64,000 nucleotides of DNA, taken from a virus. Positions 15,501-64,000 of this stretch are shown piece after piece (within the stretch, counting starts at the first letter, position 1; every line of letters starts with the position of its first letter). The DNA lies in IMG/VR virus record IMGVR_UViG_3300027702_000001; one strand, written 5' to 3'. The position numbers and the translations under genes were made by a program. The notes under the pieces were generated by a model that had not been told where the DNA came from, searched no databases, and was given only the letters and a program-made list of their open reading frames with translations.

Positions 15501-18500
15501 TTGTGAGTTAGGTTACTAATATTTGGAACAGTCTCACCAACACAGTAGATGTTATGAGGATTAGAGTTCTCAATATAAAGTGACTTCCACTCCAATGACT
15601 TATCATCAGTTGCAGGAACGGTAGGAATTAGAGTACGCTTCCAAAGCAATCTACCATCGCTATTAAACTTAGCAAGAACACCTGCTGTATCTCCACCTGC
15701 AACTGTTGTCTTACCACAGACATAGAAAGTACGATCATCAGCAACTTTGATGTCATTAATAGTAAGAGTAGATCCTGCTTCTTTAAGGAATGCTAAGAAA
15801 TAAGTTGCTTTCTTGAATCTCTGAGGATGAGAAACACGAATCTGTGGTGGATTAGTTTCAGAGTATCCTGAACCAGAGTTAATAATATTAACAGTTCTTA
15901 CAGCACCACCTTCATCTCTATTGATGTCAATATTGAAATCTTGACCTGAGTCAGTAATGATCTCATATGTTGGAGGAATGTCATCAGAATATCCAAGACC
16001 TTCCTGATCAACAGTAACTCTTTCAACACCATCGATCACTTTCACTCGGAAAGTCTTATTAGTGTCATCAAGAATAGGTGTGCTGTTAACAATGATCTGA
16101 TCATCTACACGCAGTTCGTGCTCAGTTGCAGTAGTGATACGTCCATATGGTCTATCATTTGTGATATATGATGTGTAACCTGCAATATCTAAACCTTTAA
16201 CCGCTTCAACTTTTGCGGAGGCTCCGAAACCATCAGTTCCCTCGTTATCAAAGTATAGTTTATCATTGACTTTATATGATATACCTGGGTTCTCAACCAC
16301 AAATCCGTCAACTTTAGCGTCTTCGAACTTGGTCGTAGTCTCAATATCAATATCAACAACTGATCTTGTAGAAACTTTAGGGTAGTAATCAAATAATTGT
16401 AGTACGGGTTCTTCAGTGATCTGAATAGGTGTGGTGTCTTCAAGGTTATTGATGAGACCATCTCTATTAGTATCTTCAATTTCGAAGATAAGATCCTCAC
16501 CAAGTTCAGTAACAAGAGTATCAGTTGCTTGGTTAGGTGTACGATCAATATCAATATCCACATCCTCGTAAGGATCACGGAATCTAACCACATCAGCAGG
16601 GATGTTGGTCTGTACAGCATCTTGAGAGAAGTTCCACTCATCAGGTGATGAATACAACTGAGGTCCACAAATGTATGGGAATACAGGGTTACCAGCATCA
16701 GTTGCGTCAATTGATACAAAATAAGCGTAAACACCTTCAGGGAACTGAGGAGTCTTACAGAAACGACCGTTATACTGGTCTAGATCACCCTCTTGGAAGA
16801 CATATTCATAGTCATCAATGAATGATCCTGCAATATAATTGCTAAGAAGAGGACCATCTGCGCGAATTGGGTTAGGGTTAGTATCAACATCATACAGAAG
16901 TACAGGTTTGATTCTATAAGATGAACGAATTCTTCTAACACCAGATGACTGGTCAGTGGCATCAATGTAACCATAAGGTCCGTAGATAGGGTTACCATCG
17001 AAAGCCCAACCCAAAATAGGAGAGTGTTGGTATCCAGTCGAAAGTTCTTGTAGTTGCTGTGTTGACTGATTCTTGAATACGTTATCACCAAGAACGTATC
17101 TTAGTTGCTTAGGATCTGAAAGGTGTGCATATTCACCACCGTATTGTGTATTATATCCTGCAAACACATAACCACGTGCTGTATCAAAGTTTGCTCCAAG
17201 TTCATCCTGAAGGTTTCTAGTCCACTCAAATACAGTTGCAGTAAATGATGCTAGTTCACCAACCGCTTCCAAGCGGATAGTAGTATTACCAGTAGTGTAA
17301 CCAATACCTCTGTTTACAACAGTAACACCAATAACTTTACCTCTATCTTCACCAACGGTACCGATAGTTGCTCTTGCAATGGCACCATAACCGTCTCCAT
17401 TGATTACAATCTCAGGAGCAGTTGTGTATCCTCTACCTGCAGCAATGATAGCGATAGAAACGATTCTACCGTTAATGATGATTGCTTGAGCAACAGCACC
17501 TTCACCAGAGTTCAACTTAATAGTAGGAGAACCAGTATAAGTCGAACCTGCATTATTAATACTTACAGATTGAATAGGTCCACGTACCTGCGCGGTAGCA
17601 GCACATCCAGTACCACCTCCACCAGAGATGGAAACATCAGGTTGTGAAATATACCCTTGACCTGGGGTCTCAACAAGGATCTTGGATACTACACCATTGG
17701 TAATAACAGCGGTAGCAGTAGCACCGAATCCACCACCACCCACGATAGAAACAAGAGGACTAGAAGTGTAACCAGTACCCCCGCTAGTAACTGAGATTTC
17801 ACTTAATGCACCGTTAACAACAACACTTGCGCTGGCACCACTACCGCCACCACCATTGATTTCAATAACAGGAGGATTAGCAGCATCATATCCAACACCA
17901 GGGTTATCAATAGTTATACCAGTCAATCCACCAAACTTAATCTTAGTCTGTGACTTATAAGACCAAGTAGATACACCGTTTACCCAAGCACCAATAGGAC
18001 CGAAGGATGTGTCTGTACGTCTAGAGATTGTATTGATAACTCTAGGGATACGGATCAACTTACGTTGGTTTCCAGGAAGTAGCGCAGATCCCAAGAAAGG
18101 ACCAACCTGATAGTTTGGAATACCAGAAGATGCAATGTATGAATAGTTGTCGTTAAAGAATGTATTCTGTACGTTGGTAGTAAAGTCTCTGATAGCAACG
18201 CTAATACCCTCTTCAGTTGACTTACCTTTGTTGAGGTCAACAGAAAGAAGGATATTACCCTGTGGAGAGTTAGGAGCAGGTGCAGGAATGTTATATTCAA
18301 ACAGTGTGTTACTGATACGGGATGTTACCAAGAAGGTACCGTTGAACACAGTTGGGTTTGCACCATAGATGGTAACAGTGTCACCAACCAGTAGACCGTG
18401 GTTATTGGAGCAAGTAACCGTCGCAGTCTGGTTATTAAGACCACCAGGGACAATTTGAGAAATATTGATTAGTTTTTTAACGTTATACAACCAAGAAGTG

Positions 18501-21328
18501 ATTCTTTGGTCATTAGAAGTCGAACCAAGTGATGCAACGTTTAGTTTGTCACCAGGAAGATAGTATGAACCATTGTCAGACAATACAGTGGATTCTGCAT
18601 CAGCAATACCAAGAACACGTAGTTTACACTCAGTTTCAGTGCCACGGTTTACATAAACGAAGATGTCAGAGTAAACAATAGTACCAGCATCCCAATCTTC
18701 AACCACATCGTTCTTAGAACGAGTACATTCGATGAACTGGTTTAGTGTTTTCTCTTTATACTGTACAACTTCCTCGTCATTGATACGGATTGTACCGTTT
18801 CTTTCTGGCCAACCGATAGTAGAGTCAACTGTAATAATGGACTCAGTAGTAGAAAGTTCCTCAACAAGGAGTGTTCTGTATGGGATAGTGAAAGAACCCT
18901 GCAGTGTTTCCTCAGAAATTGCAAGTTCATATACAGTACCAACACCAGTATCGATGGCAATAACGTTCTCAATCAGTGCAGATGCACCTTTTACACCAGT
19001 ATCAACAGGATCAACATACTGAATCAACTGTGAATCGAGTAGATTATCAATGTTACCTTCCAAAAGTTCTGCTCTAAGAACAGTATCTACGTTCCAAGTT
19101 GCAGCAGATGGTTTGATAATCTCATCTTTAGGATAAGAAACATCGACATTTTCAGAGTAAAGTATCTTAAAGAGGTACTGTGTGGAGATTTTCGTACCTT
19201 TCGATGCGTAAAAATCACCAATAGTCTTAATAATCTGCGGAGCATTAACTTTATTATAGTCAATTTCCGCATTTGGAAGATATTGATTTACGAATCTTCT
19301 GTATAATTCCTTAGCAAAAAGATTATCTAGATTACTAATCGTACTTCCAATAGCGTGAGAAGACTGTTGTAGATTAGATTCTTTGCTGTATATCTGATGA
19401 CCTGCTTGGTCAAAGGAAGTAACGGCGGATACTCCGCGTTTTACGTTGATGAATGCTGAAGGTTCGTATCCTACTCCAGAACTATGGATAGTAAAACCTG
19501 TAATCTCTCCAAAACCAACGTCACAAGACGCTTCTGGAGCAGGAGGAGCAGCGATAAAGACCTTAGGAGGTTCTGTATCAGAGTATCCAGTACCAAAGTC
19601 AGTGATATTGATGTCAGTGATTTCACCGTTGAAGATGGTAGCAACTGCTGTTGCACCAGTACCACCAATAGGTTGATTGTTAGAATCCTTTCTATTATCA
19701 ACGATATACACAGATGGAGCATCGGTATAACCCTTACCACCTGTCAATAGTTCAATATTAGTAACTCTACCACCAGTACAAGATACATCAAGGATCTGTG
19801 CACCAACAGGGTCAATAATCTTTGCCCTGATGTTACCTTCATATCCTTGACCTGAGGAAATAATATCAATTCTGTCTACTCTACCGTCAGCATCAAGAAC
19901 TGCCTGAGCAGTTGCATTGATAGCATTATCACCAGTAGGAGGATCCATATACACCAAAGGTGCAGTTGTATATCCTGAACCCCTGTCTACAACTGTGATT
20001 GATCCGACGACGATTGATCCGTTTTCGACTGTAGGATTGGTGCAAGTAGCACCACCAGGATTAACAAACTTAATTGAAGGAATGCGGTCATATCCACTTC
20101 CTGAAGAAGTAACACGCAGTTCCGAAACACCTTCGATTTCATCAGATACAATTGCTGTAATGGTTGCTCTGCTGCCTTCTGGATCAGCAGGTGCATCCAC
20201 AACTACCACAGGAGGATTGTTAGATGAATAACCTTGACCAGCAAATAGAAGTTGAGTGTTCTTGATACCATTTACAAGTGCTTCTGCAGTAGCACCAGAA
20301 CCAGGACCTTTATTTGACTGAATAGTGATCTTGGGAGCAAAACTTACTCTGTAACCAGTACCACCATTTCTAACAAGGATGTCATTAACTGATGCATCTA
20401 CGATTTGGGAGACTGCTGACGCACCTGAACCAAATTCAGGAGCAATCAGTTCAACAGATCTTACGTCAATTGTAGCATTTTGTGAGACAGGTTGCTTGAA
20501 GATGATTTTATCTTCAAAAATTGTAAATTCTTCGAATGGTCTCTTCTCTGATCTATTGACAACAACGATCGCTGCCACAGTAGAAAGAGGACTGTATGAT
20601 TGAGTATTGAGTTTTAGTGCAAACTCAGTAGCATCAGCAGCAACTGTAATGGTGTCCAGAGAACGGACTGGAACGCTTGTGTAACCAATCAGGTAACGAA
20701 TGGTATTGACTGCACCTGTCAACACCCCTGTAGTCGGTGCTGGAGGGTTTACAAAGCGTATCTTGTCGCCTTCAACGAAGTAATCCCTGTCAGGGAACAT
20801 AAAATCGTTATTTACGATCACCAAAAGGTGATTTGAAGACTGAGGTGAAACTGGTTTACCTAACTGCCTTAAATTAAATTCTATCTTTGTACTATCAAAC
20901 TGAGTGTTGATAGGTTCAAATTCTTGGATTTTTCTGTCAAATTCCTGTTTATTGACCCCTGGAGTGAAAACAATGTCAGGAGAATGTGTTACAGACTCGT
21001 AATATAGAACTTCATTATCAATTTTTATAGTACCATCTTTCTCTAAGAAGTAATTTACATTCTCAGCAATAATTTTATTCTGTGTAGCATTAACTGCTTC
21101 TAGTACAGCAGATTCAGATGACAAGAAATTTGGATCGAATTCACCCGACCCAATGTCAACATATGAAAGTATATTGTTTAAAATGTCGTAAGGACGACCC
21201 GATTTCTCCTGTGACTTGTAGTATTCTGTCAACAAGTTGACGAACTGATCGTGATCCTCCTTGATAAACGCAGGAATCTGACTGCTCAGTCTTTGAGAGA
21301 CCTTAATTGCTGTGTTGTGTGCAACCAT
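515..21328 (-). CDS. gp7: Giant baseplate wedge initiator gp7-like virion structural protein (6937 aa, multi-domain)
   Basis: Follows gp25-gp6 as in T4-like phages. gp7-type segments SQIPAFIKEDHDQFVNLLTEYY, GDFYASKGTKISTQYLFKILY and QDSYFYQNFSYVIKS..W..PV..TNHPVG. Also many SGYTSxPxVxIxGG repeats, a YHYH-like segment, two LamG-like segments, helical Cys repeats and a C-terminal Ig-like domain. Confidence 0.8.
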   Translation of the reverse strand: MVAHNTAIKVSQRLSSQIPAFIKEDHDQFVNLLTEYYKSQEKSGRPYDILNNILSYVDIGSGEFDPNFLSSESAVLEAVNATQNKIIAENVNYFLEKDGTIKIDNEVLYYESVTHSPDIVFTPGVNKQEFDRKIQEFEPINTQFDSTKIEFNLRQLGKPVSPQSSNHLLVIVNNDFMFPDRDYFVEGDKIRFVNPPAPTTGVLTGAVNTIRYLIGYTSVPVRSLDTITVAADATEFALKLNTQSYSPLSTVAAIVVVNRSEKRPFEEFTIFEDKIIFKQPVSQNATIDVRSVELIAPEFGSGASAVSQIVDASVNDILVRNGGTGYRVSFAPKITIQSNKGPGSGATAEALVNGIKNTQLLFAGQGYSSNNPPVVVVDAPADPEGSRATITAIVSDEIEGVSELRVTSSGSGYDRIPSIKFVNPGGATCTNPTVENGSIVVGSITVVDRGSGYTTAPLVYMDPPTGDNAINATAQAVLDADGRVDRIDIISSGQGYEGNIRAKIIDPVGAQILDVSCTGGRVTNIELLTGGKGYTDAPSVYIVDNRKDSNNQPIGGTGATAVATIFNGEITDINITDFGTGYSDTEPPKVFIAAPPAPEASCDVGFGEITGFTIHSSGVGYEPSAFINVKRGVSAVTSFDQAGHQIYSKESNLQQSSHAIGSTISNLDNLFAKELYRRFVNQYLPNAEIDYNKVNAPQIIKTIGDFYASKGTKISTQYLFKILYSENVDVSYPKDEIIKPSAATWNVDTVLRAELLEGNIDNLLDSQLIQYVDPVDTGVKGASALIENVIAIDTGVGTVYELAISEETLQGSFTIPYRTLLVEELSTTESIITVDSTIGWPERNGTIRINDEEVVQYKEKTLNQFIECTRSKNDVVEDWDAGTIVYSDIFVYVNRGTETECKLRVLGIADAESTVLSDNGSYYLPGDKLNVASLGSTSNDQRITSWLYNVKKLINISQIVPGGLNNQTATVTCSNNHGLLVGDTVTIYGANPTVFNGTFLVTSRISNTLFEYNIPAPAPNSPQGNILLSVDLNKGKSTEEGISVAIRDFTTNVQNTFFNDNYSYIASSGIPNYQVGPFLGSALLPGNQRKLIRIPRVINTISRRTDTSFGPIGAWVNGVSTWSYKSQTKIKFGGLTGITIDNPGVGYDAANPPVIEINGGGGSGASASVVVNGALSEISVTSGGTGYTSSPLVSIVGGGGFGATATAVITNGVVSKILVETPGQGYISQPDVSISGGGGTGCAATAQVRGPIQSVSINNAGSTYTGSPTIKLNSGEGAVAQAIIINGRIVSIAIIAAGRGYTTAPEIVINGDGYGAIARATIGTVGEDRGKVIGVTVVNRGIGYTTGNTTIRLEAVGELASFTATVFEWTRNLQDELGANFDTARGYVFAGYNTQYGGEYAHLSDPKQLRYVLGDNVFKNQSTQQLQELSTGYQHSPILGWAFDGNPIYGPYGYIDATDQSSGVRRIRSSYRIKPVLLYDVDTNPNPIRADGPLLSNYIAGSFIDDYEYVFQEGDLDQYNGRFCKTPQFPEGVYAYFVSIDATDAGNPVFPYICGPQLYSSPDEWNFSQDAVQTNIPADVVRFRDPYEDVDIDIDRTPNQATDTLVTELGEDLIFEIEDTNRDGLINNLEDTTPIQITEEPVLQLFDYYPKVSTRSVVDIDIETTTKFEDAKVDGFVVENPGISYKVNDKLYFDNEGTDGFGASAKVEAVKGLDIAGYTSYITNDRPYGRITTATEHELRVDDQIIVNSTPILDDTNKTFRVKVIDGVERVTVDQEGLGYSDDIPPTYEIITDSGQDFNIDINRDEGGAVRTVNIINSGSGYSETNPPQIRVSHPQRFKKATYFLAFLKEAGSTLTINDIKVADDRTFYVCGKTTVAGGDTAGVLAKFNSDGRLLWKRTLIPTVPATDDKSLEWKSLYIENSNPHNIYCVGETVPNISNLTHNPDIVVAKYRSGFDNANNPDGLIQWQRDIAGISGSTRRDYASSIRLDQDSRVMIAGYTDSNSTAPDDMWVALMDIDGSVMEKRKIASAAGSEHLHQIEWRTNDTFLFCGISDPAGAANIVIGETYYDTATIEVQWSKQIESGAYQFADPTFAIDEYGSVYVTATAIDTNAKNYGVLYAKFDNQDYTQVAVAKMYVPTGTYTSIKNAGVTFDVFGNIDISAVVERDFNAVQSVSAKISWNTGAVLSAAEVTETSGIGYHATCVANDNSGDTLIAGNKVEADQLAIFNWNTADNIFDETYNDTLKTGTNKQWAATGNAVIDNTKFYNGASSLKLDAPNSMLLQYGTSADISVEWTMEGWFALGNTQYAAQASKPEFFGIVSQLTQEVKVGVDGTSGSANFGKIFLDLNGSTSYSTGTTFWTSFNSEAWVHVAVSKQRPGVGSYIYRIYINGVEAHSVNSSTVDVNMMQATLGPISTPSSTNNWIGWIDNFVVTPSAKYTDAFTAGLVTGTNSVSKAFVYKIDKDKTKLGSFSLDDVETGHTLNVAASSSYTFNTQSVAVNPWIMGPAGIQILDYSDVVSTHVPGVYTVTSTDQSYATRTATIPTQGGKKLLLTTKVIPKFYIRDAKYATIDLVKTIAFNQNATFTKGSILQQYSVIGGNDVVSAYGTVVEVGTSSCKIGKIIGSFDTSKLLKSTAGDVNEMDKEFTVLTTTPVWEQNQNYTVGDVVYSNGKIYTSGTTATAGAIAPVHTSGTVSDGNINWAFTSTAGSFQVDLANSVHGSGTLAAFASWKPFNASDYTIRIQQIYADSDFIKGDTIDADAVNLTFAVDATGKIATFGGLVGVKQFNLQAKLNKDVVPSQALTNTDLVYCSATSRHNYEINDIIFTERFATNEYNGSFFVEEVFTSRDFTFRIRSTAVQDPTFSGTGSSVSNVNIYAKHPKFLFVRGHQYLFDLDDPSNLGYFLSFSKDNQYKLEYPFINIIREGTPGFTDDDSPTPLVKFIINEDITNISYYFDPSRTTADNSPVGEGSFIDVIQSPYQGTFTISSVSSDGLEFDFPLLVEPEKSNAPVGNNEFGNPRSIYSTTSIKAIGPISTIKLVNPGGFYQKLPIVTDIASNREIEKVRILNGGTEYVNGVYYNVPIAGDGDGASCNITVTDDGDFTGVITSVVLTSAGKGYTTASIDIDAIPGILGPLLAGSGGSLDVVIPSEGSGASVFLQGKSIGRIKKLKNNEFGFGYSHDYTLRPEITFPVNLQLFNTAILAEIKITDPGSGYTSTPAVVIEGGGGTGAAAEAIVKNNRLSEVIIKDPGAGYSSEPSVTLKSEFNYVVNIDLGYLQFNFPHGITTGAEIQLRAEDLGSTVGILPKPSSAGLVSLSSSQTYYAIAGEANSLESDQLRISLTKLDAESGSYITFLTQGEGRQILLTEVFGGQATAIVETSRFLEGELVYQGTSLELASATGYVSTNQGWQIGPRILKLENYDGVWTPGERVTGEVSRASGLIDNLSIARGTLNIDSLTNTPGQFIDDVGKPSEIVQKIQDSYFYQNFSYVIKSETPINQWRKPVLETNHPVGFNLFGELAITGGKDISGRKVVSDLVKEVNINAFTNINQITSFANAQPIYTQFNNTEVLFRQKRLTNSEEILTSIVKKIDNISEDFDGIRTQFPLNVEGGSITATEDQMFVLLNGVAQAPGDSFSTSGPSIVFSEPPKAPSRIKFRNITFTQLLITRVQFSELGGIFPLVGNRVRGIISEATGIVVDSGTDYIDLLNIENGPNGGFQEGEFVLNSATGFNSRIGVAGDGTGGIFPVSSKTIFEQGERITNLDGKFAIIEENNLDDGNINTSLVVSRTSGTAKFETGEFEIKFNDIIYSARSNIAATVSAISPYQDEVSQQIIDTVDLSPSSSFFALVFQRVPSITFPNVILDDIGETVINPTEIYDPETTNNQDFLDFEAVRNQEIRYDSLTGNDFAPGTNIRLKKIYFGNSSIRSVHDTRANNAAEAIVKNNRFIAEEAVGRMLAFYPSFTIPTGNVNCEDDIIDMLNLIAWQLEHDGNSEVWDAANFYVQSNTVYHVGGQEAQTVYAMNAARDLANQCINMVNITTEHTTLSQWKDLTITPEYEVVSNSHGDARTLLLANKWYIAYESLHYAKTQNPGYNVSGGDEHCLSDIVDVIEALAYNVAHGGNDFIWEATDRILHYGVTSGDRDTIVNSFTKAKAMSLDIMRNIAVTKAGSHGWNQVTISITADTASPTCQAVAAAITTLMDILITNLGTSASPGTRAAFQAAVTSTAPQADYSQGRTTIPNANACVAQTSAVANFFRIVTDTLQDPTGADPATYQWSISNVPRIAPAYTFTEGETIRSIKHSYKDKSSGGFFNFGQTLKGVSSGAVAEIIGTNAGSKWAYTKGVTGAFTAAEYITNSTITYNNVTVDKLNPGTGTGSLDFSGTSSRINHASNAAFAFGTGDYTIEMWIYPTTVSGTQRLVDFRTASSSSAGSIFLQGTSLKFGIATSDHITGAGAIPNANQWYHIAISRASNVTKLFVAGQQVGSDYTDASDYGNSPITVGASWNNGETFTGNMDNLIIRKGTASYSSGFIPPTVYDFRALDISFGFNGEAPFPMELSAVYATYQQTIISSANADGVELWREEIMTEEVDVSRDAYRECGDIIYKNRYWIAEEAVGRMKAKYPAFTIPGDTGTSSQGTDKCIRDTHSFIIPAIIDDLKLGGNYHTIVAGRGYLEGSGALKHINGELLQSIYTWREVGKICVDIITKDATDLTGEYTNRIRVPNYFASPASSAITTFISDLIDNMLEVMSPTGHRFRDGADLLYFNRGAIADEAVSMMEQEWNVMVNFIQVDKIDIPSRDKCVRDIRDHIVPAVAGDLITGGNSNIQGMIDSYLDSQSNINYIEHELLAMLDALEHVKFLANKALQNLLVGRNENIANIVGTTPNTIDDFYQLQYSDLTAYRKEYDATVNYDLTGSVITESTFYPPDPKIFQGTHRALDSANIIERNARTIAAEAVDIVTKTSAFKHYNFRVPGGKVHCEDDIVDFINSVAHDLRFSSNSEVYDAAALYLNTDMGLSHVTGQSQETIYAYKMARDMSVLAIRNKLGFTPFEDLSAGGGGGQGGNAIGGGVPRGDYDNNATTNKHYDAGNEILNNLRFIASTAVGRGYAQYPNLTFGGYGYQSCIDDVIDILEAMAWNLQYGGNNKVWYATEFYITDANAIQHINSQSTEVKYIFEQARDIAIEVMRQQLVNVNGYTEGYPQYDTTITIDSSSSTTGELTPTNATYNPATGDLTLTKTGHGLVTGDAVQIATYGLKFTCDFDSNQSEHTYPRPLDPSNGALLPVTGSTSSTFTVNVGTTANVTYDVTNAIYNQATGDMFLDIGSNTLDVGRHVKIPDNKLTFTCTKDGNATQHSYPRSITNNDVSVNDYASGKSLTVLEIGDSEFTATNASYVPATGVLTLTVPNHGFANGDNVQIVSNSLNFTCDMDNNYTVHSYPRVSDPAANKYLPVGNVATNTFTVNVGTTGTVNFTPSNVAYNPVTGLMILTLGNGHGLVTGSHLKIQPNSLTFTCEEDDNATNHSYPRTTTTTHTVTAADYNGTTGIMTLTIPQHGFSNGDQIKIADNGVTFTCAQDGNGTNHAYPRSSDPASNSWLEISNVTANTFKVQVLLSDGIPSTNVTAHTFVSATSGGVTWKKDRAYDVPLEVTAATATTVTVNVLASGRTPSTNTTAHTFVSATPNAISAGGNYTHTFTSAAANGIKFKNGRIKVNVNPAPSSEQYPHTFAYASSNAVEGGGNYNHTFVSSTTNSISWITGGGGATRCATQASAITSLMGITVDLFNSGTSNPQNYIDGISRTLPGEWPLTGERAAVRDLTITYDQAGSGACNVESSTISSLFDIVIGVVKDAAAGNGSYFTNQGISRNAPVLNNTLLFGGGVCYNVTSASNILFDLLEDTLGSAPEMYRQASRLISINDLYINREAYYKTVNQYSGYTGDQEFGDTIRKAYIYDLLTDSNAKTIELINTWFDAEGNFVAFPNIFRTYLIFHATATTDMIKHILAGTAPEPGTYNFEPLYKDREMRPTMTAVHKIQQLWHLVYTALAESKLPTVYLKQTIDVGVDVNSDGSISKNNHPFEAYDRVNYTVLGTNIVELDRASYYIHPDTTSSKIYLAEYIDGDKLTSLTPGLPGEIHTLSIARETGITRIPTTYGDRIIPTPTSGGIEPADIFYGTSSGAYAEVIRIQDNLATVNYKVKYLPITVTSSGTPFTNGEMIAKTGATANTGKIIATDNSTYIKVEITGGAFIASDNIEGLTTGATATVNAGIHDRALVNFKQGEFIATDILYSKEDTGKANALIVRNNDGSLIDNQSGRITYDIETVVGEFAPNDVIYGSVTDQIIEVEAFTLLPGFGEYIHSTEITSFVYAGLITDTGVTDTFNVGDVLQLQNSGQSVGHTFVVTEHDLDNNTIYLANETGRFVSIGDNLSSIANDSAYQLAKIPPGSNFPSVYTSGITQVNITTTSAYGKIEKIQQIGLRLIIHLGDTSGTFLKNAQIIGDAGFRAACSVAKTLRGRVKRFFRGFDGVQQNFKLTQTNGTAYFPDPAGHMMIFVNGILQPPGGNNAYTAFSDNIQFTEAPAVGSTFHGVYVGKLRQLDDISFDFDSLRNSFNLKLGGVFYSLTLTDGVQSNTILPENNIICQLNGVIQEPGIGFEIVGSRIIFSEVPRAGSTFVAFSYIGSDVDVIAATVVPPIESGDILQIEGEDETREVALIESSNSLITFEYSGAVKGRNGDALATIEKGRVTEAILTNSGDGYDSRPNVDVISSSGFGARIKALVGLARIDVKNAGQGYAQPTIDVNTTVPDNFFAPSGVGVNGGIDIYDPNYVPPGESQAQGEQAIVIESQPVNTTVNQGQVASFTVIASTNPAGGTITYQWQKKNYGENDWNNITGATSPTFTSPATTQADGGDEFRCGLTAAGATPTLSNAAVLTINIGATTVDNFTPDQIFDDN

Positions 21329-40598: not shown

Positions 40599-40734
40599 AG
40601 TTGTTACTCCAAATTTTATACCATAATGTAGAACATACTGGATGCATTGTGCCCTCGTTAATTCTACTAGTATTTAGATTGTTCTGGAATCATAACACAA
40701 TAATGTAACGATGAATACATTTTGTTACTTATCG

Positions 40735-42148: not shown

Positions 42149-42342
42149 TAATCCTGTTTCAAGTGTAGCAATTCCGTAATCGAATTGACTTCGGCAAGTG
42201 TGTCAGTTAGTGTTGTGTCACTAATCTGTCCATTGTGATGTCTCTTATGTAGAGACGAAATATACAACAGTATCGCTTTGCGTAAAACTGACTGTTGTGT
42301 GTTGTTAAGCATTCTGGTTTTTAAGAACATCGCTCCCCCCAA
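42148..42342 (-). CDS. Hypothetical protein
   Basis: Track ORF; TAAATA box at about 42356-42361 upstream. Confidence 0.5.
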   Translation of the reverse strand: MGGAMFLKTRMLNNTQQSVLRKAILLYISSLHKRHHNGQISDTTLTDTLAEVNSITELLHLKQD

Positions 42343-42359
42343 GCGAATGTATATACTAT

Positions 42360-43034: not shown

Positions 43035-43707
43035 AATTAGGATTGTAAGAAGTTCGGGGATCCGTGGGTGTTTTTTCACTCACATTTATATTTACCACTA
43101 AACGTGGATTGACTGTTGAGTAGGATGAACTATGAAATAGATCACCCTTGAAAGCAACCGCTCTGCCCTTCTTAGGGGTGATTCGCTGCTTTTCAGTCCA
43201 AGTATCCTTATCCACCATTGCAGGGTACTCAAAGGCATCCTGAGTTCTCTCGTTGTAGATGATAGTATCACCATCAGTATCATTTAGATAATAGATTACA
43301 TTCCAAGAGTTAGGGACGTAACTATCAATATGTGGCATTTGAACTTGATTGCTTCCCATTGCAGGGACTGCATTGATTCTCATTCGTAGCAAACATTCAG
43401 CACTCAATGCTTCACGGAACTGAAGAGCAAGCGGCATAAACCCATTTGTAAGTGTTGAGCAATGTGACTTGTCACCGTACTCAATTTCATACAAATAATG
43501 TAGGTTAGCGAACCCATTACGAGCGTCACCAATAAACTCGGGGATGTCTGTGATTGCATTGTCCTTACGATACCAAGCGAGGTCTGGATTGTTTGCACAT
43601 AGAAGTAACCAGTCTTGATATACTGGTGGGATAATGTTCTCAAAGACGATTACATCATCCAGTTTCTTATATGCTGTATCAAATGGATTGCTGACTGTCA
43701 GTTTCAT
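43018..43707 (-). CDS. 2OG-Fe(II) oxygenase
   Basis: MPHID...VIYYLNDTDGDT...PKKGRAVAF...FHSS...RLVVNINV. Confidence 0.88.
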   Translation of the reverse strand: MKLTVSNPFDTAYKKLDDVIVFENIIPPVYQDWLLLCANNPDLAWYRKDNAITDIPEFIGDARNGFANLHYLYEIEYGDKSHCSTLTNGFMPLALQFREALSAECLLRMRINAVPAMGSNQVQMPHIDSYVPNSWNVIYYLNDTDGDTIIYNERTQDAFEYPAMVDKDTWTEKQRITPKKGRAVAFKGDLFHSSSYSTVNPRLVVNINVSEKTPTDPRTSYNPNYGNLT

Positions 43708-44360
43708 TATGTGTAATAGGGTGATGTGTTGATCATTGATTGTTCATTCTGAATCTGCTGACTTGCTGTTTCCCAAGGTGCTGCCAACATCGGACGACCG
43801 TCCCATTTATTGTCAGCGTATCTACCATTTTGATCCACATATGATACAAATGCCTGTATCTGTAGATCTCCCTGATATTTTGGTCTCCAATGGAAATCTT
43901 TATGTCCTCTGAATACGATCATATCACCTTGATTCATTAATAGGTCATACGATTTACCATCAATTTCTATATAAAATGGCCAATTAGTTTGGTCTCTTGT
44001 TACACATATATTTCCTACCCATTCACCACTTGTTCTGTCTCTGTGTCTAACCAGATTAGTGCCTTTAGTATATACTCTAGCGTAACTAAATGTCTGCCAT
44101 AATTTACATCCAACCACGTCCTCAATCTGTTTCTTAATTACCTGTCCCATTGCTTCAAAACATACTGGTGAGTACATTGCAAAGGCACCTGGCATTATGG
44201 GATCGCTTGTGGGACCTGAAGTTGTCGCTTCAATTATGTCTTTAATCATAATGAATTCGTGCTTCAAATGTTCACAAGTTTCTTGTGATAATGCATTACG
44301 AACTCGCCAAAGTTTACCGTTGGCAAATTCTTCGATTTTCTCGTCGATAACCACTTCCAT
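43707..44360 (-). CDS. 2OG-Fe(II) oxygenase-like protein
   Basis: SYARVY...LVRHRDR...QGDMIVFRG...HWR...QAFVSY (HxD...H). Confidence 0.8.
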   Translation of the reverse strand: MEVVIDEKIEEFANGKLWRVRNALSQETCEHLKHEFIMIKDIIEATTSGPTSDPIMPGAFAMYSPVCFEAMGQVIKKQIEDVVGCKLWQTFSYARVYTKGTNLVRHRDRTSGEWVGNICVTRDQTNWPFYIEIDGKSYDLLMNQGDMIVFRGHKDFHWRPKYQGDLQIQAFVSYVDQNGRYADNKWDGRPMLAAPWETASQQIQNEQSMINTSPYYT

Positions 44361-44366
44361 ATAATG

Positions 44367-49179: not shown

Positions 49180-49181
49180 AA

Positions 49182-50672
49182 TTAAGATTCTTCTTTCTTA
49201 TATAGGGTAGATTGATAATACTCCAAAGGGGTTGGATAGTCTGGATCTGACTTGGTTAAATGATCCATAAACATATCATCAAAGTCGGGTGATTCGTAAC
49301 CATCGTGTCTGGCAATAACATCGAACCTATCAGGAATTATATCATATTCGTACCCACCTAGCAAGTAGAGAGCACCCTCGGATAGATAATTTAGGTTTCC
49401 GATCTGTTCAAATCTTTGTGTCAACACATCAGGGAACTCCGATTGGAAGTTCATCTGATTATAATGCTTCCAGAATGGTGTGTCACTCCTAGGACTCAAA
49501 CAGTAATGTGCTAGTACAAAATCCTTGAATGACTGTAGTCTCCTCTTCGATCCCCAGTTGAACTGTTCTCTTATGAAACCATTGTAATAGTCAATTTCTC
49601 TAGGAAGAACCTGTATCAGATTAAATAAGAACTCGTGAACTGAATATAATCCACCTGATTCTAGTGGTTCAATGAAACCACCTGCCAATCCAATAGATAC
49701 CACATTCTTCTTCCATATCTCTTTTCTTACACCTGTAGGGAACTCAAGGAATCTGAATTCCTGTTCATCACCTACACCTAAATGCTGTTTGAATTCTGTT
49801 AATGCATCCTCTTTCGATTGATGACGGGATGAGAATACATAACCCGTGCCAATTCGTGACCACGTGGGTGCTCTCCATACCCATCCACTGCTCATTCCTG
49901 TGCAGTTTGTGTATGCAACTAACTCTTTTGCTTTATCTTTATATGGTACTCTCGTTGTCCACGCTGAGTCACACATCAATTCATCTGTACCATTTATATC
50001 TGAATTCCACGCTTCCCACGTACTTCCTACCTCATTGCTGAGAATTGCAGCAAATCCTGTGCAGTCTATAAAAAGGTCTGCATCGTGCCAATCGCCACTA
50101 TGAACGCGAACTCTGCTAATCCCGTCCACGCTGGATTCAATTTCGCTGACTGTATCTTCAATGAGTCTAATACCTTTTGGTAGTGCATAGTTGTGTTTTA
50201 GATATTCTGCAAAGGAAATAGCGTCGAAATGGTAACCGACATTAAAATAAGTGAGATCGGGAATGAGTTTCCCATTTTCTGAACTGCGAACTGTATCTGA
50301 ATATATCAGACCCCAAGTCATACTGTCAACTTTTCCGATCTTTCGCCAAGTATAGTAGTCAGCAACAGATGCAGGTCCCTCTGTCTTCCCAAATGGGTAA
50401 TGGAATGGACCTTTTGGATTAAAGTTCTCGAATCGTACGCTATGTTTATATGTGGCATCACATTTAGGCATCCAGTCGGAATCTTCCAATCCCAGATACC
50501 TAATAAAAGTATTAAAAAATTGCGTTGTCGCTTCTCCTACACCAATTCTAGGTTTTGTAGGAGATTCGATCAACACAATCTCTTTTGTATCACCAAAATG
50601 TTTCGCTAGAACACTAGCGGTCATCCACCCTGCACTGCCACCACCGACAATACAGATTTTATGTAGTTGCAT
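49182..50672 (-). CDS. Flavin-dependent (tryptophan-type) halogenase 2
   Basis: GGGSAG, GVGEAT, ATYKHSV, FIDCTGF, GWVWRAP, GFIEPLESGG. Confidence 0.92.
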   Translation of the reverse strand: MQLHKICIVGGGSAGWMTASVLAKHFGDTKEIVLIESPTKPRIGVGEATTQFFNTFIRYLGLEDSDWMPKCDATYKHSVRFENFNPKGPFHYPFGKTEGPASVADYYTWRKIGKVDSMTWGLIYSDTVRSSENGKLIPDLTYFNVGYHFDAISFAEYLKHNYALPKGIRLIEDTVSEIESSVDGISRVRVHSGDWHDADLFIDCTGFAAILSNEVGSTWEAWNSDINGTDELMCDSAWTTRVPYKDKAKELVAYTNCTGMSSGWVWRAPTWSRIGTGYVFSSRHQSKEDALTEFKQHLGVGDEQEFRFLEFPTGVRKEIWKKNVVSIGLAGGFIEPLESGGLYSVHEFLFNLIQVLPREIDYYNGFIREQFNWGSKRRLQSFKDFVLAHYCLSPRSDTPFWKHYNQMNFQSEFPDVLTQRFEQIGNLNYLSEGALYLLGGYEYDIIPDRFDVIARHDGYESPDFDDMFMDHLTKSDPDYPTPLEYYQSTLYKKEES

Positions 50673-61360: not shown

Positions 61361-61368
61361 TATTTATA
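61361..61368 (-). promoter_or_regulatory. T4-type late promoter TATAAATA
   Basis: Perfect match 29 nt upstream of GTG 61332. Confidence 0.8.
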
Positions 61369-61603
61369 CACGTTGCAGGTAGAGGTCTTGAAGTGTCTCC
61401 TTCAGACTACCAATATGCTTGGATCCGATGGAAATTTGAGGGTATGATGCACCCTCTCCAAATTCATTTTCAAACGATCTTTGAGTAAAATGTTCATTGA
61501 GTCTATAAGTTTGAAATTCAAAATCTTGAGATTCAAGGAACTGTTGTGCTCTCTCACACTCTTGTGAACCATTGCTATACAAAACTGCGTTTGGATGACT
61601 CAT
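61364..61603 (-). CDS. Glutaredoxin-like protein (SxxC)
   Basis: VLYS..SQECERA, YPQISIG..HIG thioredoxin-fold pattern; a single Cys. Confidence 0.75.
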   Translation of the reverse strand: MSHPNAVLYSNGSQECERAQQFLESQDFEFQTYRLNEHFTQRSFENEFGEGASYPQISIGSKHIGSLKETLQDLYLQRV

Positions 61604-61634
61604 CTGCCGCCTTTTAAGATATTACTATTTACCC

Positions 61635-61922
61635 TTACAAACCATTCCAGAATGTATCTGATGGTGATTGCATATTTCTTGAAACAATAAACAAAATTAC
61701 ATTACAAGCGAACCACATTAGATTGGTTACCCACGCTTGTCTCCAACAATATTTCCTGTTGGTTTGTACGATATACATATTTCTCTCATTCATTGTTGCG
61801 TCAACAGTTAAAGGTCTGAACTTTAAAATCTGTTCGATTATCAATGAGATAACGAATCCTACTGCAAAGATGTAGAAGAATAAGTTCAGTACACCTGCTG
61901 CGGTGAATAGAAGTGATAGCAT
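61635..61922 (-). CDS. Membrane protein (95 aa, two TM segments)
   Basis: Hydrophobic N-terminal and C-terminal helices; TAATG-coupled. Confidence 0.7.
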   Translation of the reverse strand: MLSLLFTAAGVLNLFFYIFAVGFVISLIIEQILKFRPLTVDATMNERNMYIVQTNRKYCWRQAWVTNLMWFACNVILFIVSRNMQSPSDTFWNGL

Positions 61923-62155
61923 TAGTTGTGTGGTTTGTGGTCTTTGAATTTATCGTGGTTACCGTCCCCAGGCATTTTGCCAAAGGCAACGTATTCAATT
62001 GCTTGAAGAGAACCTTCTAATCTTTTCAGATCATTCTCATTCTTGACATACTCATCATACCATCCTTGTAGTTCATCTTGTCTGGCATTGAGTTGAGCAG
62101 TTCGTTTTGCGAAACGCTGAATGAGTTGGTTGTAGTTTTCAGTTTTTTTAGTCAC
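61922..62155 (-). CDS. Hypothetical coiled-coil protein (77 aa)
   Basis: Start moved to GTG 62155, which overlaps the upstream 3' end. Confidence 0.6.
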   Translation of the reverse strand: MTKKTENYNQLIQRFAKRTAQLNARQDELQGWYDEYVKNENDLKRLEGSLQAIEYVAFGKMPGDGNHDKFKDHKPHN

Positions 62156-62459
62156 GTTGTCTCCAATCGTCAGGTTTATCGTGATGAAACCAATCATTGA
62201 TGTCATCGGCACTGTCGAACCCTGTTCTTGTATCAGATGGGTCGGGTTCGCCTAATCCCATCCTATTCAGAAAATCATCGGTACTGCCTTCTTCGATCCC
62301 TTTGGATGCTCGTCTTGCTTGACGCATCCATTCTCGGGCAGTTGTGTGACTCTTTGATAATTTCTCTGCCCAGATCATATCTGAGATTGATACTTCTTCG
62401 CCTTTAGAGATTTTCTTACAGATCGCCTCAAGTCGAAGTCGGTAAGCAGTAGAGAGCAT
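62148..62459 (-). CDS. Hypothetical protein (103 aa, MLSTAYRLRLE...)
   Basis: CTAAATA box at 62479-62485 upstream; C-terminal HDKPDDWRQRD. Confidence 0.75.
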   Translation of the reverse strand: MLSTAYRLRLEAICKKISKGEEVSISDMIWAEKLSKSHTTAREWMRQARRASKGIEEGSTDDFLNRMGLGEPDPSDTRTGFDSADDINDWFHHDKPDDWRQRD

Positions 62460-62477
62460 TGTTTACGAGCGTTTTGA

Positions 62478-62678
62478 TTATTTAGAACCAAGTATCTCTT
62501 TTAAGGCATCAACCTTCTGGAATTCAGCGTACGCTGACTCTGATCGATCCGAAAGGATACCAAGGATGTCTGCCAGAATGTCATCGTTATCAACGTCATC
62601 GTTGATGTAGGAGTCTAACGCTTCCTGTAAGTAGCGTCTCCTGTTCCATTCTGGGGAATAGGGTTTGTAGTGTGGCAT
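62478..62678 (-). CDS. Hypothetical protein (66 aa)
   Basis: YKPYSPEW.RRRYL motif; co-oriented. Confidence 0.7.
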   Translation of the reverse strand: MPHYKPYSPEWNRRRYLQEALDSYINDDVDNDDILADILGILSDRSESAYAEFQKVDALKEILGSK

Positions 62679-62680
62679 TA

Positions 62681-62938
62681 TTAAAATGGCAATTCCTCTT
62701 CACATCTTACCACATCTGTCAACTCAAAGACAATAGGGTGGCAAGATTCCATAATGAGGTATTGGGAGTGCCTATAAAGTTCCTCCATAGTATAGCACAT
62801 TTTTTCAGAACATTCATCAATCAACTCAGGAGTTGGTCGATCAACTTCATCAAATGTAAAGGGGATACCATTAATGTACCACATCTTGACAATACCTTGT
62901 CCGTGGATAAGTCTAAAATCTGAATTTACCGTGTACAT
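62681..62938 (-). CDS. Hypothetical protein (85 aa)
   Basis: MWYINGIPFTFDE motif; co-oriented. Confidence 0.7.
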   Translation of the reverse strand: MYTVNSDFRLIHGQGIVKMWYINGIPFTFDEVDRPTPELIDECSEKMCYTMEELYRHSQYLIMESCHPIVFELTDVVRCEEELPF

Positions 62939-63360
62939 TTTACAAACTCAAAAGGTCCTTTTTCTGATCCCCATAGGAGAGTTCCTGATTTGTCCCAACC
63001 TTTGTCAGACGTTTCCCAAGAGTCTTTAGTAAGTCTTGCCTTGGTTTCAACTCTCCTACCTTGTTCGTCAATCCTTTCAGATTTACCGACCCAAACACAA
63101 TCTTGGACTTCTGTGAACGTCATATCACTGACGTTGATTCCATCTTTGAAAGTTTGTAGGACAATTTGATCATTATCAACAACAATCTTATGTTCTCTCT
63201 GGCGATATACATCACCATTCCAGTCATACCATTGTTTAGTTTTCAATACGTCATCTTCATAGTACCACTCGTAATGTACATAAGCAAATGATGTCGGGTT
63301 GAGTTGACATTGCTTGATGTTATGCCAGTGGTGGACTAAGTGATCAAGAAACTTCTCCAT
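62926..63360 (-). CDS. cpeT: CpeT/CpcT-like (T-type) phycobilin lyase, copy 1
   Basis: HWHNIKQCQLNPTSFAYVHYEW, QWYDW...YRQR, W..SDKGWD..G.LLWGSEKGPFEF: the T-type lyase pattern (W.N..QA..NP..FA.V...W; YRxR; D.G.D....WGS..GPF.F). Confidence 0.75.
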   Translation of the reverse strand: MEKFLDHLVHHWHNIKQCQLNPTSFAYVHYEWYYEDDVLKTKQWYDWNGDVYRQREHKIVVDNDQIVLQTFKDGINVSDMTFTEVQDCVWVGKSERIDEQGRRVETKARLTKDSWETSDKGWDKSGTLLWGSEKGPFEFVKCTR

Positions 63361-63364
63361 AGAT

Positions 63365-63802
63365 CTAATCTATATATTTTCTTTTGAAAATGAATGGTCC
63401 TGGGGTTTTACCCCACGTCATACCTTTGTCAATAGATGTAAATTCTTCAGCAGTTACAGTAACGTAAGAATATACGTCTTCACCTCTGCTGTTCTTAGCA
63501 TCCTGTTCGGTTCTGCCGCAATAACCACCCTCTCCTACTTTAGTGAAGAGCATACTAGGTTCTTGAGTGCCATCTTTGCGAAAGGTCTGCAACTCAAGAT
63601 GATTACCTTTATCCAAGAGTTTGTGATTACGCTCTCGGTACATCTCTCCATTCCAGTCATACCACTGTGCAGAATGAATCTCCCCCTCTTCTTCCCAGAA
63701 CTGATAGTGAACGTGGGAGAAATGAGAAGGAGAATTTTGTGCCTGTTGTTTGTTTTCCCAAGGGTGAAACAACAATGACTTTAACTCTTCAATCTGGGTC
63801 AC
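63365..63802 (-). CDS. cpeT: CpeT/CpcT-like (T-type) phycobilin lyase, copy 2
   Basis: PWENKQQAQNSPSHFSHVHYQF, QWYDWNGEMYRER, SIDKGMTWGKTPGPFIFKR; clearly paralogous to copy 1. Confidence 0.7.
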   Translation of the reverse strand: MTQIEELKSLLFHPWENKQQAQNSPSHFSHVHYQFWEEEGEIHSAQWYDWNGEMYRERNHKLLDKGNHLELQTFRKDGTQEPSMLFTKVGEGGYCGRTEQDAKNSRGEDVYSYVTVTAEEFTSIDKGMTWGKTPGPFIFKRKYID

Positions 63803-64000
63803 AGCATCTTATGAGCGGCAGCAGTCTCCTGTGCAACGTGTACACCGAGTTCGCCTTCGCTAGGTAGGTTGTCCAGATTAGGTAGTTCTTCTTCATTAAG
63901 AAGTGAATCTACTTCAGAACCAATATTACGTCCTGGGGCAACTTGTGTCATAACAACATTGCCTTTAGGTGCTTCGATGAGAACATTCTCACCGCGTTCA
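63799..64000 (-). CDS. C-terminal part of a hypothetical protein (runs off right edge)
   Basis: Hand-translated ERGENVLIEAPKGNVVMTQVAPG...QETAAAHKML*; GTGA overlap with cpeT copy 2. Confidence 0.6.
   Translation of the reverse strand, partial: ERGENVLIEAPKGNVVMTQVAPGRNIGSEVDSLLNEEELPNLDNLPSEGELGVHVAQETAAAHKML

What the first reader, a model, noticed from the sequence alone, without database searches (positions are those of the whole stretch)
62926..63802. Tandem duplicated T-type phycobilin lyases placed among late/structural genes; the substrate may be phage-encoded
Seen: two adjacent, divergent CpeT-like paralogs sharing QWYDWNG..YR.R and GPF.F, upstream of the late fibre operon rather than beside photosynthesis genes in this window. 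Copy 2 lacks part of the D.G.D...WGS loop. Knowledge: T-type lyases attach bilin at beta-C155. As I recall, a characterised cyanophage CpeT binds PEB but its acceptor is unclear. Inference: the beta-155-like helices in gp7 (3716-8776) are candidate acceptors, and the duplication could serve different bilins or sites.
Basis: partly seen in the sequence, partly recalled or inferred. Interest (0 to 1): 0.75.

Follow-up and report, generated by a model that had tools for sequence, protein, structure and literature searches.

The report
Ancient tandem pair of cyanophage CpeT genes
A marine cyanobacterial virus carries two old, diverged, side-by-side copies of the pigment-handling gene cpeT, where cultured relatives have one. 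Cultured phages carry cpeT almost exactly when their tail or baseplate proteins carry pigment-protein-like domains, which fits a viral target, but that link rests on only one or two evolutionary events.

Summary
Minus-strand ORFs 63802..63365 (copy b, 145 aa) and 63360..62926 (copy a, 144 aa) are both CpeT/CpcT-family proteins and are 35% identical. Copy a has a confident beta-barrel model whose best matches are CpcT, CRL and phage CpeT.

The pair is an ancient duplication. About 35 of 58 related uncultured viral contigs keep the same b-then-a order. Both copies are under purifying selection and keep the Tyr/Arg/Asp/Trp positions of CpcT. They form a virus-only clade about 30% identical to classical phage CpeT. 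Every phage record that matched had a single match.

The placement next to structural genes is real but ordinary. cpeT normally sits in the islet beside gp5, and a T4-type late promoter separates the pair from the fibre genes.

The proposed phage acceptor is partly supported. The 6,937-aa gp7 has six phycobiliprotein-like repeats with a conserved C-x-x-D motif. In 22 isolates, repeats and cpeT co-occur (17 both, 1 repeats only, 4 neither, 0 cpeT only), and in five genera cpeT lies just upstream of a repeat-bearing gene. But the marine phages lacking both form one clade, the conserved cysteine is Cys82-like rather than beta-155-like, and cpeT copy number does not track repeat number.

Other agents in this scan had already noted the repeats, and a similar tandem pair, in other genomes.

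The parts
63365..63802 (-). cpeT-b: the upstream, faster-evolving CpeT-family paralog (145 aa). Its GTG start overlaps the stop codon of the upstream gene (GTGA).
   Evidence: Pfam PF06206 27.9 bits and phrog_488 E 7e-19. The b-type profile A4 matches CpcT 4o4o (E 3.2e-9) and phage CpeT 5hi8 (E 3.3e-8) over nearly its full length. dN/dS is 0.06-0.20. b-type copies form one clade (SH-aLRT 98).
62926..63360 (-). cpeT-a: the downstream CpeT-family paralog (144 aa). It starts 4 nt after the stop of cpeT-b and ends in a Cys that is invariant across the a-type (C142).
   Evidence: Pfam PF06206 36.4 bits and phrog_488 E 2e-26. AlphaFold2 model pLDDT 92. Foldseek top hits are CpcT 4o4s, CRL 6lix and phage CpeT 5hi8 (TM 0.76-0.80). 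dN/dS is 0.05-0.12. Invariant residues are listed.
63799..64000 (-). C-terminal part of a small upstream ORF (87 aa in the relative, weak Phd-like match) whose stop overlaps the cpeT-b start. In the relative, gp5 (baseplate hub and lysozyme) lies further upstream.
   Evidence: locus L007 of the nearest complete relative.
61364..62938 (-). Five small conserved cyanophage ORFs of unknown function (phrog_4134, 1461, 507, 10366, 10609) and a thioredoxin/glutaredoxin-like ORF (61364..61603). Together with the cpeT pair they form the islet next to gp5.
   Evidence: The same small ORFs and a glutaredoxin accompany cpeT in Sf-FP1.
61361..61368 (-). T4-type late-promoter motif TATAAATA, 29 nt upstream of the virion structural gene that starts at 61332. 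It marks the start of the structural/fibre unit, downstream of the cpeT islet.
   Evidence: The motif occurs only twice in the window and this copy is well placed, but two matches are no more than chance predicts (3.4 expected), so this is a positional inference only.
515..21328 (-). Giant gp7-position baseplate protein (6,937 aa), directly after gp25 and gp6. It holds six phycobiliprotein-like helical repeats with C-x-x-D at Cys 3968, 4098, 4637, 4797, 4974 and 5118 (nt 9290-9562, 8900-9172, 7283-7555, 6803-7075, 6272-6544, 5840-6112).
   Evidence: Pfam PF00502 31.3 bits against a cut-off of 22.2 for one repeat. Alignment to phycoerythrin alpha around Cys82. Motif and repeat scan. Cysteines invariant in relatives down to 60% identity. 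VIA-align Z 9-11 to phycobiliprotein-fold proteins, but from a low-confidence model. gp25 and gp6 identified.

Best explanation
The two ORFs are an anciently duplicated, virus-specific branch of the CpeT/CpcT (T-type) phycobilin lyase family, carried by an abundant uncultured marine T4-like cyanophage lineage.

Shown: both are intact, both are under purifying selection, and both keep the residues that face the bilin in solved CpcT.

Inferred: the two genes are tightly spaced and probably translated as a coupled pair. The start of b overlaps the upstream stop, and a starts 4 nt after the stop of b. They sit in the usual cpeT islet beside gp5, upstream of a predicted late promoter and so probably outside the late fibre unit.

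Most likely mechanism, also inferred: each barrel binds a linear tetrapyrrole. This could be phycocyanobilin made by the phage PcyA, or a host bilin. The barrel holds the bilin in the right geometry and presents it to a cysteine on a phycobiliprotein-fold acceptor. The two copies have split this job between them, by site, by bilin or by acceptor.

The acceptor is not settled. Host beta subunits are the default assumption, and the phage's own phycobiliprotein-like gp7 repeats are a live alternative.
For: Family membership: Pfam and PHROG hits. Separate a-type and b-type profiles both match solved CpcT and phage CpeT. The copy a model has pLDDT 92 and its top five Foldseek matches are CpcT, CRL and phage CpeT.

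Conserved positions: the residues equivalent to Nostoc CpcT Tyr65, Arg66, Asp163 and Trp175 are invariant in both clades (Y52, R53, D119, W130 in copy a).

Ancient and retained: 58 viral loci carry this subfamily. About 35 have the pair in the same b-upstream, a-downstream order, across lineages only 46-57% identical to the window. The subfamily forms one clade (SH-aLRT 99) and the b-type copies are monophyletic within it (98). dN/dS is 0.05-0.20.

Context: in the relative, gp5 lies upstream. Syn19 and Sf-FP1 have cpeT in the same kind of islet. The late-promoter motif lies after the islet.

Bilin supply: the nearest complete relative encodes PcyA (221 bits against a cut-off of 206).
Against: No bilin binding or transfer has been measured for either protein. 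The only characterised phage CpeT (P-HM1) bound phycoerythrobilin tightly but did not transfer it directly to host CpeB. I recall this from Gasper et al. 2017, and the paper was not held here. So lyase activity may not apply.

The subfamily is only about 30% identical to classical phage CpeT and NCBIfam does not name it. Copy b was not modelled on its own. The catalytic roles of Tyr65 and Asp163 are recalled from the CpcT structure paper, not read here. Promoter assignment rests on a motif match only.
Confidence: 0.72

Rival explanations
1. The CpeT proteins attach bilin to the phage's own phycobiliprotein-like domains in the giant baseplate protein gp7, so the virion carries pigment. The two copies would serve two kinds of site, or two bilins.
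For: gp7 holds six repeats that match Pfam PF00502 and align with phycoerythrin alpha around the Cys82 site. C-x-x-D is kept in about 46 of 50 aligned repeats from 15 phages plus this window.

Among 22 isolates, 17 have repeats and cpeT, 1 has repeats only, 4 have neither and 0 have cpeT only. The naive Fisher p is 7e-4.

Record counts in the phage collection are similar: 368 records with repeats, against 252 plus 117 with the two classical cpeT types (overlap between the two sets not checked).

In S-PM2, Syn1, S-RIM32, ACG-2014e and Sf-FP1, cpeT lies 0.4-2.3 kb upstream, on the same strand, of a ~4,000-aa repeat-bearing gene. In Sf-FP1, pcyA lies between them.

The CpeT pair is the only lyase-type gene found in the relative, which has no S/U- or E/F-type lyase.
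Against: The three marine phages that lack both features form one clade sister to all the rest, so the association reflects one or two events. The adjacency is also confined to one clade.

DSL-LC03 keeps the repeats and the Cys motif but has no lyase gene of any of the three types.

The conserved cysteine is Cys82-like, a site served in cells by S/U- or E/F-type lyases (established knowledge), not T-type. A beta-155-like cysteine was not confirmed.

In this phage the pair lies 42 kb from gp7 and upstream of a predicted late promoter. Copy number does not scale with repeat number: 6 repeats with two cpeT here, against 7 to 11 repeats with one cpeT elsewhere.

I know of no published report of coloured or bilin-bearing cyanophage particles, and my searches found none.
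Confidence: 0.2
2. This is the classical auxiliary-gene reading. Both proteins act on host phycobiliprotein beta subunits at the Cys155-equivalent site, to keep the host antenna working during infection. The two copies would be specialised for two host substrates, for example phycocyanin and phycoerythrin beta chains.
For: They belong to the T-type lyase family and keep its pocket residues. cpeT is a common cyanophage auxiliary gene, present in 12 of 16 genomes in PMC3037559. S-PM2 infection raises host phycoerythrin (reported in PMC2984593). The window's 41% G+C is, as I recall, nearer to Synechococcus phages than to Prochlorococcus phages; Synechococcus has several beta-155-type sites.
Against: As I recall from Gasper et al. 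2017, phage CpeT did not transfer bilin directly to host CpeB. The subfamily has no cellular member: a scan of 185,579 species genomes confirmed none. The near-perfect tracking of the repeats is not predicted by this reading. The host of this lineage is unknown.
Confidence: 0.35
3. The proteins are not lyases. They are tight bilin carriers or buffers that hold free bilin during infection, for storage, detoxification or signalling. The pair may work as a heterodimer.
For: The only characterised phage homologue forms a very stable fluorescent complex with phycoerythrobilin (recalled from Gasper et al. 2017). Like that phage protein (136 aa), both copies are compact (144-145 aa against 207 for cellular CpcT). 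Conserved tandem order and tight spacing are typical of subunits made together. The a-type carries an invariant C-terminal Cys that could bind bilin covalently.
Against: Tyr and Asp at the positions thought to catalyse addition are kept in both copies. That would not be needed for simple carriage. About 24 related loci carry an a-type copy alone, so a heterodimer is not obligatory.
Confidence: 0.2

Closest known systems
Phage CpeT of Prochlorococcus phage P-HM1 (PDB 5hi8), and classical cyanophage cpeT (phrog_488; Syn19, S-PM2 and Sf-FP1 types)
   Same: Compact beta-barrel of about 140-150 aa. Full-length profile match (E 1.6e-7 and 3.3e-8) and TM 0.76-0.80. Same islet beside gp5. Like 5hi8, the window's copy b lacks the loop before the WG motif.
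   Different: Only about 30% identical. It forms a separate, strongly supported clade. It is present as a conserved tandem pair, whereas every phage record that matched showed one match. The a-type ends in an invariant Cys that 5hi8 lacks.
Cyanobacterial T-type lyase CpcT (Nostoc PCC 7120; PDB 4o4o and 4o4s) and the plant relative CRL (6lix)
   Same: Same fold, and the same conserved Tyr/Arg and Asp/Trp positions. Copy a keeps the D-x-G...WG loop seen in CpcT and CRL.
   Different: About 60 residues shorter and 13-17% identical in the structural alignments. No cellular genome was found to carry this subfamily. Site specificity for beta-Cys155 is untested.
Heterodimeric bilin lyases made from paralogous adjacent genes (CpcS/CpcU, CpcE/CpcF)
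   Same: Two diverged paralogs encoded side by side in a conserved order, both under selection.
   Different: They belong to different protein families. No T-type heterodimer is known to me. Many related phages carry the a-type alone.

Membership tests
CpeT/CpcT T-type phycobilin lyase family (Pfam PF06206) | Sequence match to the family model above the curated threshold | tested here: met
   36.4 and 27.9 bits against a cut-off of 21, though each match covers only part of the model. Both match phrog_488 over their full length. The a/b and b-only profiles match solved CpcT and phage CpeT.
CpeT/CpcT T-type phycobilin lyase family (Pfam PF06206) | Lipocalin-like beta-barrel fold | tested here: met
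   Copy a: AlphaFold2 pLDDT 92, ten or more strands. The top five Foldseek hits are 4o4s, 6lix (two chains), 5hi8 and 4o4o. Copy b was not modelled separately and is inferred from its 35% identity to a and from the profile matches.
CpeT/CpcT T-type phycobilin lyase family (Pfam PF06206) | Residues facing the bilin ethylidene (Nostoc CpcT Tyr65 and Asp163, with neighbouring Arg66 and Trp175) | tested here: met
   They align with Y52, R53, D119 and W130 of copy a and Y55, R56, D125 and W130 of copy b. They are invariant in 18 a-type and 15 b-type sequences. The catalytic role of these residues is recalled, not read here.
CpeT/CpcT T-type phycobilin lyase family (Pfam PF06206) | Binds a bilin and attaches it to the Cys155-equivalent of a beta subunit | not testable with these tools
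   This needs co-expression and attachment assays.
Classical cyanophage cpeT orthologue group (Syn19, P-HM1 and S-PM2 types) | Groups with known phage cpeT in a family tree | tested here: not met
   The a and b copies form their own clade of 63 rows (SH-aLRT 99) on a long stem. Syn19-type and Sf-FP1-type cpeT fall in two other clades. This was a quick LG+G4 tree with no rooting test.
Classical cyanophage cpeT orthologue group (Syn19, P-HM1 and S-PM2 types) | Single copy in the islet beside gp5 | tested here: not met
   The location criterion is met. The single-copy criterion is not: here and in about 35 related viral loci the gene is a tandem pair, while all isolates that have it show one copy.
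Phycobiliprotein fold (Pfam PF00502), for the proposed acceptor repeats in gp7 | Sequence match including the Cys82-type attachment motif | tested here: met
   31.3 bits against a cut-off of 22.2 for one repeat. The alignment AKYP..PG..G.S...KC.RD matches phycoerythrin alpha. C-x-x-D is present in six of six repeats here and in about 46 of 50 aligned repeats across 15 phages plus this window. The equivalent repeat in the relative scores below the cut-off (18 bits).
Phycobiliprotein fold (Pfam PF00502), for the proposed acceptor repeats in gp7 | A cysteine equivalent to beta-Cys155, the site served by T-type lyases | tested here: inconclusive
   Invariant extra cysteines exist (C4028, C4185, C4241), and C4185 sits at the start of a predicted helix. 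But sequence alignments to solved phycobiliproteins stop before that region. The model is low-confidence (pLDDT 47). Only some repeats have such a cysteine.
Phycobiliprotein fold (Pfam PF00502), for the proposed acceptor repeats in gp7 | Globin-like phycobiliprotein fold | tested here: inconclusive
   VIA-align gives Z 9-11 for residues 155-301, and eight of the ten best hits are phycobiliprotein-type chains (phycoerythrin, allophycocyanin, ApcE and phycobilisome chains); the other two are bilin-binding photocobilins. However, the model is poor, and helical matches below Z 13 may reflect only a common arrangement.

The most novel reading that the evidence does not exclude
The phage makes its own bilin (PcyA), and its two CpeT paralogs load it onto the phycobiliprotein-like domains of the giant baseplate protein, one paralog per type of cysteine site. 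The infectious particle would then carry covalently bound pigment and could respond to light. This would also explain why cyanophages carry cpeT without the rest of the host lyase operon.
Probability: 0.15. Interest if true: 0.9.

Novelty: new variant of a known kind. Interest (0 to 1): 0.55.

Why it matters
The role of cpeT in cyanophages has been unclear since it was first seen in S-PM2. The 2010 comparative study calls it unresolved (PMC3037559). As I recall, the one biochemical study found tight pigment binding but no direct transfer to the host protein.

This window adds three things:
- There is a widespread, unannotated, virus-only branch of the family, listed in public databases only as hypothetical proteins. 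It exists as a conserved two-gene pair. That argues for two distinct jobs rather than redundancy.
- Among cultured phages, cpeT is present almost exactly where tail or baseplate proteins carry phycobiliprotein-like domains. In one clade it sits directly upstream of such a gene.
- That association rests on only one or two evolutionary events and has one counter-example, so it is a lead and not proof.

Together these points turn "what is phage CpeT for?" into a bench experiment with named substrates.

Tried and rejected
- Heterodimer prediction for copies a and b (complex prediction with alignments A3 and A4) returned no verdict (score 0.00 against a mark of 0.32). It counts neither for nor against binding.
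- The AlphaFold2 model of gp7 residues 3900-4270, built from nine relatives, was poor (pLDDT 47). The placement of the second cysteine could therefore not be judged. The fold search on that model is only suggestive.
- Single-sequence searches of solved structures with either copy found nothing significant. Profiles were needed.
- NCBIfam names neither copy.
- A scan of 185,579 species genomes for the subfamily motif confirmed no cellular homologue.
- The idea that one copy is decaying was rejected. Both are intact in many lineages and have low dN/dS.
- The idea that the loop deletion defines the b-type was rejected. It is specific to this lineage.
- The idea that DSL-LC03 compensates with another lyase type was rejected. 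No HEAT-repeat (E/F-type) or CpeS-type gene was found.
- Searches for published expression timing of cpeT and for reports of tandem cpeT found nothing usable.
- The phage CpeT structure paper was not held, and a search for the CpcT structure paper found nothing. What I say of both papers is from memory.
Contexts of the metagenomic homologues therefore came from IMG/VR loci only.
- The window's own assembly is not held. Whole-genome statements rest on the nearest complete relative, G001.

Full report
WHAT IS THERE. The coordinates match two adjacent minus-strand ORFs exactly: 63802..63365 (145 aa, GTG start, here cpeT-b) and 63360..62926 (144 aa, ATG start, here cpeT-a). Both pass the Pfam CpeT/CpcT model PF06206 above its curated threshold. 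Both match the cyanophage family phrog_488 over their full length. They are 35% identical to each other. The copy at 63365..63802 lacks six residues of the loop before the WG motif.

FAMILY MEMBERSHIP. Single-sequence searches of solved structures found nothing significant. A profile of both copies plus homologues matched Nostoc CpcT (4o4o, E 7.5e-9), phage P-HM1 CpeT (5hi8, E 1.6e-7, full length) and plant CRL. A profile of b-type sequences alone did the same for CpcT and phage CpeT. An AlphaFold2 model of copy a is confident (pLDDT 92). Its five best Foldseek matches are CpcT (with and without phycocyanobilin), CRL and phage CpeT, with TM 0.76-0.80. In these alignments, Nostoc CpcT Tyr65, Arg66, Asp163 and Trp175 correspond to residues that are invariant in 18 a-type and 15 b-type sequences. 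The role of Tyr65 and Asp163 in catalysis is my recollection of the CpcT structure paper, which I could not find in the library.

AN OLD, RETAINED DUPLICATION IN UNCULTURED PHAGES. Against 50,697 phage records, the best matches are classical cpeT genes at about 30% identity, with one match per record. In IMG/VR, 58 loci encode this subfamily. About 35 carry the pair in the same order (b upstream, a downstream). About 24 carry an a-type gene alone, with no second copy in the flanking DNA. In a family tree, the a and b copies form one clade (SH-aLRT 99) on a long stem. The b-type copies are monophyletic within it (98). Syn19-type and Sf-FP1-type cpeT lie in other clades. This was a quick tree without a rooting test, so the order of events among a-type, single and b-type copies is open.

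Pairwise dN/dS is 0.05-0.12 for copy a and 0.06-0.20 for copy b. The loop deletion in b is confined to the window's own lineage. The a-type ends in an invariant cysteine (GPFxFxxC) that the b-type, phage CpeT and CpcT all lack. No cellular genome among 185,579 species representatives was confirmed to hold the subfamily. Public databases list both proteins only as hypothetical proteins of marine viral metagenome assemblies (for example BCU97499.1 and BCU97500.1), and some sequence variants are seen on more than 100 contigs.

CONTEXT. All long ORFs run on the minus strand. Downstream of the pair lie five small conserved cyanophage ORFs, a thioredoxin-like ORF, a virion structural protein and tail-fibre proteins. 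Beyond these come two halogenase-like genes, several 2OG-Fe(II) oxygenase paralogs, a helicase, and PAAR, gp25 and gp6. The 6,937-aa ORF follows at the gp7 position.

In the nearest complete relative (G001, 181,945 bp, same pair), gp5 lies about 0.8 kb upstream. Classical cpeT sits in the same kind of islet: between large structural genes and gp5 in Syn19, and after gp5 with the same small ORFs and a glutaredoxin in Sf-FP1. So "among structural genes" is the normal address of cpeT.

A T4-type late-promoter motif, TATAAATA, lies 29 nt before the structural gene that starts at 61332. That is downstream of the cpeT islet, and no such motif lies near the pair. The start of b overlaps the upstream stop codon (GTGA), and a starts 4 nt after the stop of b. 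Promoter assignment is inference from motifs only. I found no published expression timing for cpeT.

THE PROPOSED PHAGE ACCEPTOR. Pfam places a Phycobilisome-protein (PF00502) match above threshold in the giant protein. That segment aligns with phycoerythrin alpha across AKYP..PG..G.S...KC.RD, which is the Cys82 attachment site. Six repeats share C-x-x-D. The cysteines are invariant in relatives down to 60% identity. The motif is kept in about 46 of 50 aligned repeats from 15 isolates plus this window.

My model of two repeats was poor (pLDDT 47). Its best structural matches (Z 9-11) are nevertheless almost all bilin proteins of the phycobiliprotein fold, which I treat as suggestive only. The cysteine that is conserved everywhere is Cys82-like. 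A beta-155-like cysteine, the site T-type lyases serve, could not be confirmed. Other agents in this scan reached similar conclusions about the repeats on this and other genomes. I treated those notes as leads.

CO-OCCURRENCE TEST. I took 17 isolates with repeats: 15 sampled from the ranked list of repeat-positive records, plus Syn19 and Sf-FP1, which also have them. Sixteen have exactly one cpeT, and DSL-LC03 has none. I then tested five phages that I expected to lack cpeT. P-SSM2, S-SM2, S-SSM7 and S-CRM01 have neither cpeT nor repeats, even with a repeat profile. Syn1 has both. The table is therefore 17 with both, 1 with repeats only, 4 with neither and 0 with cpeT only (naive Fisher p 7e-4).

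Record counts agree: 368 records have repeats, against 252 plus 117 with the two classical cpeT types. I could not check how far those two sets overlap.

In S-PM2, Syn1, S-RIM32, ACG-2014e and Sf-FP1, cpeT lies 0.4-2.3 kb upstream, on the same strand, of a ~4,000-aa repeat-bearing gene. In Sf-FP1, pcyA lies between them.

Several facts weigh against a strong reading:
- A helicase tree puts P-SSM2, S-SM2 and S-SSM7 in one clade sister to all the others. The association therefore amounts to one or two events, and the five phages with adjacency also fall in one clade.
- DSL-LC03 keeps C-x-R-D repeats without any T-, S/U- or E/F-type lyase gene.
- cpeT copy number does not follow repeat number. 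There are six repeats with two cpeT genes here, seven with one in S-SZBM1 and P-RSM6, and eleven with one in ACG-2014e.
- The relative encodes PcyA but no heme oxygenase and no second bilin reductase.

VERDICT. The pair is a real, ancient, selected duplication of a virus-only branch of the T-type lyase family, which I call a new variant of a known kind. The placement argument is not informative. The phage-acceptor idea is a reasonable, testable hypothesis with supportive but phylogenetically shallow evidence, and it has a site-specificity problem. I put it at about 0.2, and at about 0.15 for the fuller version with a pigmented virion and one lyase per site. The heterodimer prediction gave no verdict.

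Noticed in passing
window 62926-62940 (C-terminus of cpeT-a); alignment A3: All 18 a-type sequences end in an invariant cysteine (GPFxFxxC, C142). The b-type, phage CpeT 5hi8 and Nostoc CpcT have none at that position. It might form a covalent bilin adduct or a disulfide.
   Followed up: partly
Phage records NC_006820 (S-PM2), NC_015288 (Syn1), KU594606 (S-RIM32), KJ019054 (ACG-2014e) and PV340854 (Sf-FP1; locus L021): In these five genera, cpeT lies 0.4-2.3 kb upstream, on the same strand, of a ~4,000-aa structural gene with phycobiliprotein-like repeats. In Sf-FP1 a phycocyanobilin reductase gene sits between the two.
   Followed up: partly
Phage record OR003938.1 (DSL-LC03; locus L114): This freshwater Synechococcus phage keeps repeats with an intact C-x-R-D motif, but no T-, S/U- or E/F-type bilin lyase gene was found in it.
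   Followed up: partly
Phage records NC_006883 (P-SSM2), NC_015279 (S-SM2), NC_015287 (S-SSM7) and NC_015569 (S-CRM01): These phages lack both cpeT and the repeats. The first three form one clade sister to all the other cyanomyoviruses sampled. P-SSM2 is reported to carry the bilin reductase genes pebS and pcyA (PMC2984593), so bilin synthesis genes occur without the repeats.
   Followed up: partly
window 47527-50672 (- strand): Two adjacent tryptophan-halogenase-like genes (550 and 496 aa, phrog_2928) lie just downstream, on the coding strand, of the tail-fibre genes.
   Followed up: no
window 29564-46271 (- strand): At least five ORFs match 2OG-Fe(II) oxygenase-type families (phrog_274, 81, 61). 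They lie near a ferrochelatase-domain ORF (43707..44360).
   Followed up: no
window 24376-24918 (- strand): A PAAR-motif ORF (180 aa) sits between a 1,142-aa baseplate-like protein and gp25.
   Followed up: no
IMGVR_UViG_3300020416_000001 (handle G002; locus L091): This is a 171,756-bp linear contig, estimated 94% complete, whose gp7 domain is 93% identical to the window's. It shows no cpeT match. The region is probably missing from the contig, but I did not check.
   Followed up: no
loci L035, L066, L067, L072, L073, L075, L077 (b-type starts): In most lineages the best-fitting b-type start is a GTG close to the preceding gene's end, as in the window, where it overlaps the upstream stop. The a-type starts with ATG a few bases after the stop of b. 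This pattern suggests coupled translation.
   Followed up: partly
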